Origin: an uncultured Flavobacteriales bacterium
GTDB taxonomy: Bacteria > Bacteroidota > Bacteroidia > Flavobacteriales > BACL11
Direction of reading: 5' to 3'
DNA: 64,000 nucleotides
Assembly: GCA_905181585.1 (NCBI GenBank)
Contig: CAJIYG010000005.1
Coordinates: forward strand, 32,615 to 96,614
Shown here: in pieces, positions 56,654 through 57,758 of the stretch
Layout: each line of letters begins with the position of its first letter
Position numbering within the stretch: the stretch's first letter is position 1
The notes under the pieces: model-generated
Told to the model about the DNA's origin: nothing
The model's database searches: none
What the model saw: only the letters and a program-made list of their open reading frames with translations
Program-made: the position numbers and the translations under genes

Positions 56654-57136
56654 TTATCTAGTCAAATCTATTGAACAATCAATAGAGTCAAGTTGTCCAG
56701 GAATTAATTCAAATGAAAATATTACATCCATATTACCTGTTGAGTCAGAAAGAACACCATCTCCTTGAATATCCACAGTGATATCAATAGGAAGATTATT
56801 TAAGTTTAACTGAGCCTGAAAAGGTTGTGGCTGAATATTAAAAACGCCTGCACTATTAATTGAGGCTAAAATAATATTTTCTCCTGCTTCAATAAAAATA
56901 TTTGATAAAGTGTCAGATAAAACATTCACAGAATCAGGTAACTCTTCATCTAAAGAAATAATTGTATTTCCAAATTCATAGTCTTCACATAAAGAATTCA
57001 TAACCCAAACTCCTTCAGCATCTTCTAAATTAAAAAAATCTAACGGCCCTAGCTCATCTTCACCTCCACTACTACAAGAAGAGATAAGTGAGAAAATTAA
57101 AAAAGTTTTTGTAAAAAGTGATAAAATATTTTTCAT
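56654..57136 (-). CDS. Lipoprotein of unknown family, paralogue of the upstream gene
   Basis: Lipobox LISSC. Its ~125-aa domain, bracketed by the conserved W..N..CED and (S/I)DC motifs, aligns by eye with the C-terminal domain of the 57147-57758 product. Confidence 0.5.
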   Translation of the reverse strand: MKNILSLFTKTFLIFSLISSCSSGGEDELGPLDFFNLEDAEGVWVMNSLCEDYEFGNTIISLDEELPDSVNVLSDTLSNIFIEAGENIILASINSAGVFNIQPQPFQAQLNLNNLPIDITVDIQGDGVLSDSTGNMDVIFSFELIPGQLDSIDCSIDLTR

Positions 57137-57146
57137 TGTTAATTTA

Positions 57147-57758
57147 TTATTTAGTTAATATCATTGCACAATCGCTAGAGAAATCAATAGAAGTTATTAC
57201 AATATTAATAGAGCCTGAAAAATTTAAATTTAAATATGCTTCAGTAGCAGAAGTTAAATAACCACTTCCAGTAACATCTACATCAATATCTTGTCCTGTA
57301 GTAGGTTCAGAAAATTGAATAGTTGAAGGGGTAACAGTCATTAAACCTTCAGAAGAAATTGTTCCACTTACTAAAGTACCATTTAAATCAATAAATAAAG
57401 ATGATTGGCCATCAGAATTTATATCTATTGTCTCAGGCAATTGATCATTTAATGAAATAGTTGTTAAACCGGCAATAGAAATATCTTCACAGTTAGGATC
57501 TAAATTCCATGTTCCTTGAGCTAAGTCAAAAGCGTAATTACAGCTACCATCATCCGCATTTGCATTAGAATTAAAATTAAAAGCTGTAACATCTATGCAG
57601 CCTAAAATAGGCATGACACAAGATCCATCATCTGTATTTGCTAGATTATTAAAATTTAAAGCGGCAGAATCAGTGCATCCAAGTAATTCCTTTTCACAAG
57701 ATGAAAATATCAAAGAAATTATTGCTAAACTTAAAAGTAAAAGGTAAATATTTTTCAT
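57147..57758 (-). CDS. Lipoprotein of unknown family with two N-terminal Cys-bracketed 21-aa modules
   Basis: Lipobox IFSSC. The modules are [21 protein letters not shown] and [21 protein letters not shown], followed by the shared ~125-aa domain. Confidence 0.5.
   Translation of the reverse strand: [203 protein letters not shown]

What the first reader, a model, noticed from the sequence alone, without database searches (positions are those of the whole stretch)
56654..57758. Tandem paralogous lipoproteins with a duplicated GC.D..A.NFN..AN.DDGSC module and an unrecognised ~125-aa domain
Both proteins start with lipoboxes and share a C-terminal domain bracketed by two conserved cysteines. The brackets are W.L.PNCED ... 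SDCAM in one protein and W.MNSLCED ... IDCSI in the other, which suggests a disulfide-closed fold. The longer protein also carries two consecutive 21-residue modules, each bracketed by cysteines: [21 protein letters not shown] and [21 protein letters not shown]. I cannot assign either element to a named family. The acidic DDGS loop could bind a metal or a glycan. Co-operonic placement with an M1 aminopeptidase suggests a surface substrate-capture role.
Basis: seen in the sequence. Interest (0 to 1): 0.55.

Follow-up and report, generated by a model that had tools for sequence, protein, structure and literature searches.

The report
Stalked β-barrel lipoproteins beside M1 peptidase
Two neighbouring genes of an uncultured marine flavobacterium encode membrane-anchored proteins with an unnamed lipocalin/avidin-like barrel, one of them held on two copies of a tiny cysteine-stapled spacer that also forms the hinge of the animal immune protein perforin-2.

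Summary
ORFs 57147-57758 (203 aa) and 56654-57136 (160 aa), both on the minus strand, have signal peptides with lipoboxes. They share a ~125-aa C-terminal domain (31% identity, E 6e-15) with two invariant cysteines. The longer protein carries two 21-aa Cys-bracketed modules.

Neither element has a Pfam or NCBIfam match. AlphaFold models (pLDDT 88.6 and 82.7) show an eight-stranded up-and-down β-barrel with a G-x-W start. It resembles lipocalins and avidins only weakly (Foldseek E ≥ 3.5e-3). An exhaustive search of 1.84 billion representatives found only 102 clusters. Among 185,579 species genomes, 22 carry it, all uncultured marine Flavobacteriales or Bacteroidota.

The module is not an orphan. 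A profile of bacterial modules hits one thing in the PDB: the "EGF-like" hinge of human MPEG1/perforin-2 (E 2e-7). The module also forms arrays of 2-20 copies in type IX secretion system (T9SS) cargo proteins and occurs in crAss-like phage virion proteins. Its copy number varies from 0 to 5 among orthologues, which fits a spacer.

In nearly all loci with context (one exception) the lipoprotein sits between rpmB and an exported M1 aminopeptidase. The M1 family is older and wider, and also occurs at this locus without the lipoprotein. The link to M1 is therefore plausible but unproven.

The parts
57147..57758 (-). ProtA gene: 203-aa lipoprotein made of signal peptide/lipobox, two 21-aa modules and a C-terminal barrel domain
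   Evidence: ORF list. 155 homologues, start codon and Cys21 conserved. AF2 model pLDDT 88.6.
57696..57758 (-). ProtA signal peptide and lipobox (residues 1-21, [21 protein letters not shown])
   Evidence: Read from the sequence. M1, K2, S20 and C21 are near-invariant in the 53-sequence alignment. Lipidation itself was not tested.
57618..57680 (-). Module 1 (residues 27-47, [21 protein letters not shown])
   Evidence: Pattern scan. 15/21 residues identical to human MPEG1 residues 332-352. The module profile hits MPEG1 at E 2e-7. pLDDT 87-94.
57540..57602 (-). Module 2 (residues 53-73, [21 protein letters not shown]); the start-to-start period with module 1 is 26 residues
   Evidence: A 26-residue period (21 + 5-residue linker) is the dominant spacing in tandem arrays elsewhere.
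57150..57536 (-). ProtA C-terminal domain (residues 75-203): short helix, G82-x-W84, then a roughly 8-stranded antiparallel barrel, with invariant C90 and C197
   Evidence: Alignments. AF2 secondary structure. Weak Foldseek matches to avidins and a designed beta-barrel.
56654..57136 (-). ProtB gene: 160-aa paralogous lipoprotein without modules. Signal/lipobox at residues 1-21 (57074-57136), a low-confidence acidic Gly/Ser linker at 22-32, and the barrel domain at 33-160 (56657-57040) with C50 and C154
   Evidence: AF2 model with domain pLDDT 86-96 per 10-residue block and linker pLDDT < 50. Foldseek matches to lipocalins, LpqH and avidins.
54990..56636 (-). Neighbouring M1-family zinc aminopeptidase (548 aa). 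It has a type-I signal peptide ending ...LFS|Q, a GMEHQ motif at residues 298-302, HETGH at 333-337 and E356. No T9SS C-terminal domain was detected
   Evidence: PF01433 E 1.6e-17. Invariant motif residues. No PF18962 or TIGR04183 hit. The gene starts 17 nt after ProtB.
57775..57812 (.). Symmetric GC-poor hairpin flanked by A and T runs, between the rpmB stop and the ProtA start. It looks like a terminator on both strands
   Evidence: Terminator scan and minus-strand reading. Function was not tested.
57831..58070 (-). rpmB (ribosomal protein L28), the upstream flank of the cassette
   Evidence: ORF. PF00830 in syntenic loci. tblastn 73-99% identity in all loci.
54749..54931 (-). rpmG (ribosomal protein L33), the downstream flank, followed by DUF4295 (54595-54747) and ftsY
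   Evidence: ORF. PF00471 and PF14128 in syntenic loci. TAAATTTG lies upstream of rpmG.

Best explanation
ProtA and ProtB are real, clade-specific outer-membrane lipoproteins of an uncultured, AT-rich marine flavobacterium.

Each is anchored by a lipidated Cys21 and ends in a very acidic (pI about 4) eight-stranded up-and-down beta-barrel of the lipocalin/avidin (calycin) type. The barrel opens with a short helix and a G-x-W motif. It is probably stapled by one disulfide between the first and last strands.

In ProtA the barrel is held away from the membrane by two 21-residue modules that probably each carry one disulfide. In ProtB a flexible acidic Gly/Ser linker does this job. The modules are the same mini-domain that forms the hinge between the MACPF and P2 domains of perforin-2. 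Here they act as rigid spacer or stalk units, not as the functional site.

The most likely role is a small-ligand or peptide binding accessory protein that is co-transcribed with the exported M1 aminopeptidase. It would help an oligotrophic bacterium hold peptide substrates or products at the envelope.

Shown: the genes, paralogy, motifs, predicted fold, module homology, copy-number variation and synteny.
Inferred: lipidation, disulfides, orientation in the membrane, ligand binding and any coupling to M1.
For: - Genes and paralogy.
- Family conservation: invariant W, C, P, G, GxG and C across 25-53 sequences.
- Fold: high-confidence AF2 models of both paralogues have the same topology. The best PDB fold matches are all small up-and-down ligand-binding barrels: avidins and a designed barrel for ProtA; lipocalins, LpqH, BcnA, BT3507 and avidins for ProtB.
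- Module as spacer: copy number is 0-4 among full-length homologues (5 in representative P0157). The same module forms tandem arrays of 2-20 copies with a 26-residue period in T9SS cargo, and is present in phage virion proteins. In perforin-2 it bridges two domains as a hinge (PMC6989145, PMC9713709).
- Operon-like layout: the gaps are 10 nt and 17 nt on one strand. The order L28-lipoprotein(s)-M1-L33 is kept in 29/29 loci, in 24 metagenome loci and in two very distant members.
- An out-of-locus relative (P0178) lies in a cluster of secreted protease, protease-inhibitor-domain and esterase/S9 genes.
- A K-(D/E)2 surface-export signal is present in 67 of 171 family members (PMC5080379).
Against: - No ligand, disulfide, lipidation or localisation was measured.
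- Fold matches are weak (no hit at E <= 1e-3; TM about 0.3-0.5), so 'ligand-binding barrel' rests on fold class only.
- M1 orthologues at 42-53% identity occur without the lipoprotein, including directly between rpmB and rpmG (L181, L195, L213, L231). M1 therefore does not need it, and the co-occurrence can be explained by descent within one clade whose whole neighbourhood is syntenic.
- The window's own proteins have only weak surface-export signals (CEKEL and CSSGGEDE).
- M1 has a type-I signal peptide and no T9SS domain. If the lipoproteins are surface-exposed and M1 is periplasmic, they would be in different compartments.
Confidence: 0.4

Rival explanations
1. The lipoproteins have nothing to do with the M1 peptidase. 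They are general envelope lipocalin-like proteins, for example binders of lipids or other hydrophobic molecules for membrane maintenance, like the bacterial lipocalins Blc and BcnA. On this view the gene was simply inserted, or arose, upstream of M1 in one lineage and has been inherited there since.
For: - M1 is found at the same rpmB-rpmG position without any lipoprotein (L181, L195, L213, L231). It is found elsewhere in about 50 further loci without one.
- The whole neighbourhood (dnaA ... CinA, L28, L33, DUF4295, FtsY) is syntenic in every lipoprotein-bearing locus, so co-location carries little independent weight.
- The ProtB model's best fold hits include bacterial and animal lipocalins and the mycobacterial lipoprotein LpqH.
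Against: - Gaps of 10-17 nt on the same strand suggest co-transcription with M1.
- The position directly upstream of M1 is kept while lipoprotein identity drops to 35%, and also in very distant members.
- The one out-of-locus relative again sits among peptidase genes.
- The mature proteins are extremely acidic, with 25-26 D+E against 1-2 K+R.
Confidence: 0.3
2. The barrel is a cognate regulator, inhibitor or membrane tether of the M1 peptidase. This would be analogous to the eight-stranded barrel inhibitors encoded next to serralysin-type metalloproteases. It would keep the exported enzyme inactive or anchored at the outer membrane.
For: - The gene lies next to, and is probably co-transcribed with, a zinc metallopeptidase.
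- The fold is a small, probably disulfide-stapled eight-stranded barrel. From background knowledge, this is also the fold class of the serralysin inhibitors.
- The weak surface-export signal in the window proteins would allow a periplasmic orientation alongside M1.
Against: - No Pfam hit to any inhibitor family.
- No protease inhibitor appears among the top 50 fold matches of either model.
- Sister lineages keep M1 without the lipoprotein.
- The N-terminus, which in serralysin inhibitors enters the active site, is here lipidated or carries spacer modules.
- M1 aminopeptidases are not known to need such partners (background knowledge).
Confidence: 0.1
3. The proteins are fast-evolving cell-surface decoration, acting as an adhesin, a phage receptor or a decoy. 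On this view the barrel and stalk matter for interactions with particles, other cells or phages and not for nutrient binding.
For: - The module is shared with T9SS-secreted adhesin-like proteins (SprB repeat, CHU_C, Por_Secre_tail partners).
- It is also shared with crAss-like phage muzzle and virion proteins.
- The lipoprotein diverges faster than M1 in the same loci (35-50% against 57-67% identity).
- Stalk length varies between orthologues.
- Many family members carry a canonical surface-export signal.
Against: - There is no adhesin-type domain.
- The barrel is small and its best fold matches are ligand-binding barrels.
- The conserved single chromosomal position next to a ribosomal-protein cluster and a peptidase is not typical of variable surface antigens.
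- The divergence is no greater than that of the cytoplasmic neighbour CinA.
Confidence: 0.1

Closest known systems
MPEG1 / perforin-2 'EGF-like' hinge (human 6U23/6U2J chain residues 331-352; mouse 6SB3 residues 332-353; 6SB1 residues 4-24)
   Same: It is the same 21-residue, two-cysteine motif: [21 protein letters not shown] in human MPEG1 against [21 protein letters not shown] here, 15/21 identical. A profile of 54 bacterial modules finds only MPEG1 in the whole PDB (E 2e-7). In both cases the segment links two larger parts of an extracytoplasmic protein.
   Different: In MPEG1 it is a single copy between a MACPF pore-forming domain and the P2/MABP membrane-binding domain, and it serves as the pivot of a 180-degree rotation (PMC6989145). 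Here there is no MACPF or P2 domain. The module is tandemly repeated and sits between a lipid anchor and a beta-barrel. A true EGF domain has six cysteines, whereas this module has two.
Lipocalins and bacterial lipocalin-like lipoproteins (for example beta-lactoglobulin, LTBP1, BcnA)
   Same: Both are small up-and-down antiparallel beta-barrels preceded by a short helix, with a G-x-W motif on the first strand. They are lipid-anchored or secreted. From background knowledge, the general role of the class is small-ligand binding.
   Different: There is no sequence-profile match to any lipocalin Pfam family. Foldseek E-values are no better than 3.5e-3 and TM-scores are about 0.3-0.4. The model has no C-terminal helix. 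The conserved disulfide joins the first and last strands.
Avidin / streptavidin family
   Same: This family gives the best PDB fold matches for ProtA (rhizavidin, streptavidin, agroavidin; TM normalised to target about 0.5). It has eight strands and a similar size.
   Different: Identity is 7-12% and E-values are >= 6.6e-3. There is no Pfam Avidin hit. Biotin-binding residues were not examined. Nothing in the gene context points to biotin.
Tandem Cys-bracketed repeats in T9SS cargo and crAss-like phage muzzle proteins of Bacteroidota (unnamed; not in Pfam or NCBIfam)
   Same: The module consensus and the 26-residue period are identical. BFVD matches of 54-56 columns have 52-54% identity and rmsd 1.4-2.1 A.
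   Different: Those proteins are large (up to 3487 aa), carry 2-20 copies, and end in Por_Secre_tail, CHU_C or virion domains. ProtA is a small lipoprotein with two copies and a barrel.
Surface lipoproteins of Bacteroidota nutrient-capture systems (SusD/E/F-like proteins, BtuG/H, and the 'auxiliary nutrient binding protein' BT3507, 4QNI)
   Same: Both have a lipid anchor, and many family members carry the K-(D/E)2 export signal (PMC5080379). BT3507 appears among the weak fold matches. Both are encoded next to a degradative enzyme.
   Different: No TonB-dependent transporter or SusC/D gene lies nearby. The partner enzyme is an M1 peptidase with no surface-targeting signal. Similarity is at fold-class level only.

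Membership tests
Bacterial lipoprotein (signal peptidase II substrate) | Positively charged N-terminus, hydrophobic core, and a lipobox [LVI][ASTVI][GAS]C with Cys at +1 | tested here: met
   ProtB LISS|C fits fully. ProtA IFSS|C has F at position -3. S20 and C21 are invariant or near-invariant in the family. No dedicated predictor was available.
Bacterial lipoprotein (signal peptidase II substrate) | Actual diacylglyceryl modification and cleavage | not testable with these tools
   Requires palmitate labelling, globomycin sensitivity or mass spectrometry.
Bacteroidota surface-exposed lipoprotein (lipoprotein export signal, LES) | K-(D/E)2 or Q-A-(D/E)2 at positions +3 to +5 after the lipidated Cys (PMC5080379) | tested here: inconclusive
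   ProtA is CEKEL (K+3 and E+4 only). ProtB is CSSGGEDE. 67 of 171 family members have C-x-K-[DE][DE].
Lipocalin / calycin superfamily | Eight-stranded antiparallel up-and-down beta-barrel | tested here: met
   AF2 models show a short helix followed by a meander of long antiparallel strands in both paralogues. This is a prediction, not an experiment.
Lipocalin / calycin superfamily | G-x-W motif on the first strand after an N-terminal short helix | tested here: met
   ProtA has H76-80 then G82-T83-W84. ProtB has H37-40 then G42-V43-W44. W is invariant and G is near-invariant.
Lipocalin / calycin superfamily | Significant sequence-profile or structure match to a member family | tested here: not met
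   No Pfam or NCBIfam hit at E <= 1-10. No PDB sequence hit. No Foldseek hit at E <= 1e-3, with best values of 3.5e-3 and 5.1e-3 and TM <= 0.57.
Avidin family | Pfam Avidin profile match and conserved biotin-contact residues | tested here: not met
   No Pfam hit. Only weak fold similarity at 7-12% identity. Contact residues were not examined.
MPEG1-type hinge module ('truncated EGF-like' of perforin-2) | A 21-residue G-C-T-[DN]-x5-N-[FY]-N-x2-A-N-x-D-D-[GD]-S-C segment bracketed by two cysteines | tested here: met
   The profile of 54 bacterial modules against PDB sequences hits human MPEG1 at E 2e-7 and mouse at 1.7e-3, with no other credible hit (next best E 0.36). A single-sequence search gives E 1.4e-3.
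MPEG1-type hinge module ('truncated EGF-like' of perforin-2) | Same three-dimensional structure and disulfide as in 6U2J or 6SB1 | not testable with these tools
   Coordinates of the models and PDB entries could not be superposed here. The AF2 confidence for the modules is high (pLDDT 87-95).
MPEG1 / perforin-2 protein family | MACPF domain followed by the hinge and the P2/MABP domain | tested here: not met
   No MACPF or other Pfam domain in ProtA. The barrel profile does not hit MPEG1, and MPEG1 is absent from the top 50 fold matches.
Canonical EGF domain | Six cysteines forming three disulfides in about 35-40 residues | tested here: not met
   Each module has two cysteines in 21 residues. 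There is no Pfam EGF hit.
T9SS cargo protein | C-terminal sorting domain (PF18962 / TIGR04183, or PF13585 / TIGR04131) | tested here: not met
   None found in ProtA, ProtB or the M1 peptidase. Other module-bearing proteins do have one.
M1 zinc aminopeptidase (the neighbouring gene) | Peptidase_M1 profile, HExxH plus a downstream E, and a GxMEN-type exopeptidase motif | tested here: met
   PF01433 E 1.6e-17. HETGH at 333-337, E356 and G-M-E-H-Q at 298-302 (a variant of GAMEN), whose M299, E300, H301 and Q302 are invariant in 9 orthologues.

The most novel reading that the evidence does not exclude
The 21-residue module may be an ancient, mobile extracytoplasmic mini-domain truly shared by descent or horizontal transfer between marine Bacteroidota, their crAss-like phages and metazoan MPEG1/perforin-2. 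If so, the 'EGF-like' hinge of the oldest animal pore-forming immune effector would have a bacterial or phage relative or origin. In addition, the barrel lipoprotein plus M1 peptidase may form a previously unrecognised peptide-scavenging unit of abundant uncultured marine flavobacteria.
Probability: 0.2. Interest if true: 0.65.

Novelty: new variant of a known kind. Interest (0 to 1): 0.42.

Why it matters
The barrel domain defines a small, unnamed protein family. Only 102 clusters were found among 1.84 billion representatives, and all come from uncultured marine Flavobacteriales or Bacteroidota. It deserves a family entry.

The module is a common but unannotated building block of secreted proteins in marine Bacteroidota and their phages. 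Naming it would improve annotation of many large 'hypothetical' surface proteins.

The module's match to the perforin-2 hinge gives that so-called 'EGF-like' segment its first recognisable relatives. Those relatives have natural copy-number variation that could be used to study its mechanics. The match also raises a testable question about where the ancillary parts of MPEG1 came from.

The functional link to the M1 aminopeptidase concerns how streamlined ocean bacteria harvest peptides, but it remains a hypothesis.

Tried and rejected
- A literature search for the motif 'DDGSC' found nothing relevant.
- The third homologue search, using a two-module profile, returned only 48-88-aa fragments; those inspected look like frameshifted pieces of repeat arrays. 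It gave no taxonomic or architectural information.
- tblastn of the two-module stretch against GenBank phages found nothing at E <= 1e-3. This negative is misleading, because a strict DNA pattern finds at least 120 IMG/VR contigs and BFVD contains matching viral proteins.
- Seven of ten sampled IMG/VR ORFs carry T9SS sorting domains, so they look cellular.
- Alignments A2 and A4 were too divergent for locus scanning. Narrower alignments were used instead.
- Idea rejected: the barrel is related to the P2/MABP domain that follows the module in MPEG1. There is no sequence hit, and MPEG1 is absent from the top fold matches.
- Idea rejected: the proteins or the M1 peptidase are T9SS cargo. No C-terminal sorting domain was found.
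- Idea not supported: the barrel is a serralysin-inhibitor-type protein. There is no profile or fold hit.
- The 215-aa neighbour of the out-of-locus relative in L034 is not a paralogue (hhalign probability 1.9%).
- Several distant family members lie on contigs under 1.6 kb and give no context.
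Full report
**Observation**

ProtA is at 57147-57758 (203 aa) and ProtB is at 56654-57136 (160 aa).

Both begin with MK, a hydrophobic core and a lipobox-like Cys21 (LIFSS|C and LISS|C).

BLASTP of one against the other gives 31% identity over 126 residues, E 6e-15. A 25-sequence alignment of both paralogue families keeps W, C, P, G, G-x-G and the C-terminal C invariant.

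ProtA also has two 21-residue Cys-bracketed modules, at 57618-57680 and 57540-57602, that share 14/21 residues. No other ORF in the window has the module.

The non-lipid cysteines come in even numbers: three pairs in ProtA and one pair in ProtB. Pfam and NCBIfam give no match for either protein, even at E <= 10. Scanning all 25 aligned domains individually gives no consistent family.

**The barrel-domain family**

A homologue search with ProtA found 155 proteins.
- Most are lipoproteins of about 170-275 aa from marine metagenomes and Flavobacteriales MAGs, all labelled hypothetical.
- A minority are larger proteins that share only the module.

ProtB has a narrower set of 26 relatives.

An exhaustive HMMER search with the domain profile against 1.84 billion cluster representatives found only 102 clusters at E <= 1e-3.
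- Nearly all are short; those inspected are lipoproteins with 0-5 N-terminal modules.
- A few giant multi-stretch hits look like compositional noise.

A scan of one genome per species (185,579 species) found the domain in 22 genomes. All are uncultured marine Flavobacteriales, Cryomorphaceae, a Weeksellaceae-labelled MAG or Bacteroidota MAGs or SAGs. The window itself has 28% G+C. Its M1 gene matches the JGI marine metagenome contig JGI24540J26637_10000056 at 99-100% identity (L179).

**Fold**

AlphaFold2 with family alignments gave confident models.
- ProtA has pLDDT 88.6, with no segment below 50.
- ProtB has pLDDT 82.7 overall and 86-96 per 10-residue block in the domain. Only the signal peptide and the linker are poorly predicted.

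Both domains show the same order of elements. A short helix is followed by a first strand carrying G-x-W and ending at the conserved Cys, then a small hairpin, then a meander of long antiparallel strands. The last strand carries the second conserved Cys.

Foldseek against the PDB gave no hit at E <= 1e-3, and every leading match is a small up-and-down barrel.
- ProtA matches a designed beta-barrel, rhizavidin, streptavidin and agroavidin (E 5e-3 to 5e-2; TM about 0.5 on the target).
- ProtB matches lipocalins (LTBP1, beta-lactoglobulin, prostaglandin D synthase, apolipoprotein D), M. tuberculosis LpqH, B. cenocepacia BcnA, Bacteroides BT3507 and avidins (E 3.5e-3 to 0.1).

The domain profile finds nothing credible among PDB sequences (best E 1.3).

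I conclude that the domain is a calycin-type barrel at the level of fold class, with the lipocalin-like helix plus G-x-W start. It is not a member of any named family. A disulfide between the first and last strands, which are neighbours in a closed barrel, is geometrically reasonable.

**The module**

A phmmer search of the two-module stretch against all PDB sequences hit only macrophage-expressed gene 1 / perforin-2. A profile of 54 bacterial modules hit human MPEG1 at E 2e-7 ([22 protein letters not shown], chain residues 331-352) and mouse perforin-2 at 1.7e-3. The next unrelated hit was at E 0.36. Human MPEG1 shares 15/21 residues with ProtA module 1, which is more than the two ProtA modules share with each other.

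The structural papers call this segment an 'EGF-like repeat' or 'truncated EGF-like domain'. [quoted passage not shown] It becomes unresolved in the pore state (PMC9713709). With two cysteines instead of six, it is not a canonical EGF domain.

In bacteria the module is common.
- The ProtA search also retrieved proteins with 4-7 tandem copies joined to Por_Secre_tail, CHU_C, SprB-repeat, Lcl_C and G5 domains.
- The consensus is xGCTDxxAxNYNxxANxDDGSC, and the dominant period is 26 residues.
- A strict back-translated pattern found at least 120 IMG/VR contigs. Their ORFs are 158-3487 aa long and carry 2-20 modules.
- Of ten ORFs sampled, seven carry T9SS sorting domains and so look cellular. Two match a virion structural protein family, and one of those also matches the crAss-like phage muzzle protein C-terminal domain.
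- BFVD confirms the module in viral proteins, including Virus NIOZ-UU157. The matches span 54-56 aligned columns at 52-54% identity and rmsd 1.4-2.1 A.

Among homologues of ProtA the number of modules varies from 0 to 4, and one distant representative (P0157) has 5. ProtB replaces them with a disordered acidic Gly/Ser linker. This tolerance of copy number, the tandem arrays elsewhere and the bridging role in perforin-2 all point to a spacer or stalk function and not to a binding site. Whether the DDGS loop binds a metal or a glycan could not be tested.

**Genomic context and the co-occurrence test**

ProtA, ProtB and the M1 peptidase lie on one strand with gaps of 10 and 17 nt.

All 29 related loci examined have the order CinA - L28 - lipoprotein - (second paralogue in nine loci) - M1 - L33 - DUF4295 - FtsY. 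These comprise 22 species representatives and seven metagenome contigs.

Two very distant family members (E 1e-8 to 1e-12 to the profile) also sit between L28 and an M1 N-terminus.

Single-copy proteins are about equally similar to ProtA and ProtB. The duplication therefore happened within the sub-clade that includes the window, and ProtB then lost the modules.

The reverse test was run with an alignment of M1 orthologues against metagenome contigs.
- 24 of the 25 loci that have upstream sequence and an M1 at >= 53% identity (by tblastn) carry the lipoprotein.
- L181 (53% identity) has CinA-L28-M1-L33 with only 65 nt between L28 and M1 and no lipoprotein.
- L195, L213 and L231 (43-47% identity) have L28-M1 without it.
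- About 50 further M1 orthologues (42-51% identity) lie elsewhere without it.

The M1 gene, and its position inside the rpmB-rpmG cluster, is therefore older and wider than the lipoprotein. The lipoprotein is a clade-specific addition directly upstream of M1. Co-occurrence runs one way and is largely explained by descent. That leaves the tight spacing as the main argument for co-expression.

One out-of-locus relative is P0178, which carries the canonical export signal CEKDD. It lies among the following genes:
- a T9SS trypsin-like protease;
- a protein with thyroglobulin-type-1 and Kunitz domains;
- an esterase/S9-like hydrolase that itself contains two modules.

This is a single independent hint of a link to extracellular degradation.

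**Localisation signals**

The M1 peptidase has a type-I signal peptide ending LFS|Q. This fits the Bacteroidota Q-rule (PMC5837995). It has no T9SS domain, so it is most simply periplasmic.

The surface-export signal of Bacteroidota lipoproteins is K-(D/E)2 at +3 to +5 (PMC5080379). It is present in 67 of 171 family members (CKKEE, CKKED). The window's ProtA has CEKEL and ProtB has CSSGGEDE. Orientation therefore remains open.

Both mature proteins are very acidic, with pI 4.05 and 25-26 acidic against 1-2 basic residues.

A symmetric hairpin with flanking A and T runs lies between rpmB and ProtA. A TAAATTTG element lies upstream of rpmG. Neither was tested.

**Interpretation**

The structural description is well supported: lipid anchor, spacer, then a barrel that is probably disulfide-stapled.

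The function is inferred. My best explanation (0.4) is an outer-membrane ligand or peptide-binding accessory protein co-expressed with the exported M1 aminopeptidase.

The main rival (0.3) is a lipocalin-like envelope protein unrelated to M1, whose position is historical.

Two less likely rivals (0.1 each) are:
- an M1 tether or inhibitor, which has no inhibitor-family signal and is hard to square with M1 doing without it in sister lineages;
- a fast-evolving surface decoration, adhesin or phage target, suggested by shared modules with adhesins and phage virion proteins, variable stalks and faster divergence than M1, although divergence is no faster than that of CinA.

**Novelty**

Nothing here is a new kind of system. 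It is a new, narrowly distributed sequence family within a familiar fold class and protein type, combined with a widespread but unnamed repeat. The unexpected result is the specific match of that repeat to the perforin-2 hinge. I found no mention of this in the MPEG1 papers I read or in a full-text search for the motif. I rate the finding as a new variant of a known kind, with moderate interest.

Noticed in passing
window 57540-57680; PDB 6U23/6U2J residues 331-352, 6SB3 residues 332-353, 6SB1 residues 4-24: The 21-aa module matches the 'EGF-like' hinge of MPEG1/perforin-2 (profile E 2e-7) and nothing else credible (next best E 0.36) in the PDB. The MPEG1 papers read here do not mention bacterial or phage relatives.
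   Followed up: partly
L046:3-3086 (-), L062:1-3180 (-); BFVD A0A7S9STJ6, A0A7S9SUA2: The same module occurs in phage virion proteins. These include proteins matching phrog_14478 and the crAss-like muzzle protein C-terminal domain, and proteins of Virus NIOZ-UU157.
   Followed up: partly
L051, L073, L082, L086, L089, L094, L116 (IMG/VR contigs): Seven of ten sampled module-bearing ORFs on 'viral' contigs end in a T9SS sorting domain (Por_Secre_tail). These contigs may be cellular DNA or prophage flanks misfiled as viral, or phages may carry T9SS-type cargo genes.
   Followed up: no
window 54595-58070 and loci L001-L029, L159-L183: The lipoprotein(s) and M1 peptidase sit inside the rpmB - rpmG - DUF4295 - ftsY ribosomal/SRP cluster. 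In L181, L195, L213 and L231 M1 directly follows rpmB without the lipoprotein (rpmG is also seen downstream in L181, L213 and L231), so M1 arrived first and the lipoprotein gene was added later.
   Followed up: yes
L034:482-8149: A distant barrel-family lipoprotein (P0178, signal CEKDD) lies in a cluster of secreted proteins. The cluster holds a T9SS trypsin-like protease, a Thyroglobulin_1 + Kunitz protein, and an esterase/S9-like hydrolase with two modules and a C-terminal tail resembling those of its neighbours.
   Followed up: partly
window 57775-57812: A perfectly symmetric hairpin (GTTGCTATA-loop-TATAGCAAC) with A9 and T9 flanks lies between rpmB and ProtA. It looks like a bidirectional terminator only about 17 nt upstream of the ProtA start, leaving little room for a separate promoter.
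   Followed up: no
L213:2371-2964, L231:5168-5740: In lineages that lack the lipoprotein, a different ~190-aa signal-peptide protein, Gly/aromatic-rich and resembling an outer-membrane beta-barrel, sits between M1 and rpmG.
   Followed up: no
P0092 (223 aa), P0075 (230 aa): P0092 joins a truncated barrel domain to a Peptidase_M23 C-terminus on a 1.1-kb contig and is probably an assembly chimera. P0075 is labelled Pelagibacterales in its source but is a typical family member, so it is probably a mis-binned contig.
   Followed up: no
window 58125-59357 versus L003, L006, L007 and others: CinA upstream of rpmB is full length (410 aa, three domains) in the window's sub-clade. In most other lipoprotein-bearing lineages it is only a ~158-aa CinA C-terminal domain.
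   Followed up: no
P0243-P0362: A profile search for tandem modules returned only 48-88-aa gene calls; several of the twelve inspected run out of frame after the repeats. This suggests that repeat arrays are often frameshifted or fragmented in metagenome assemblies.
   Followed up: no
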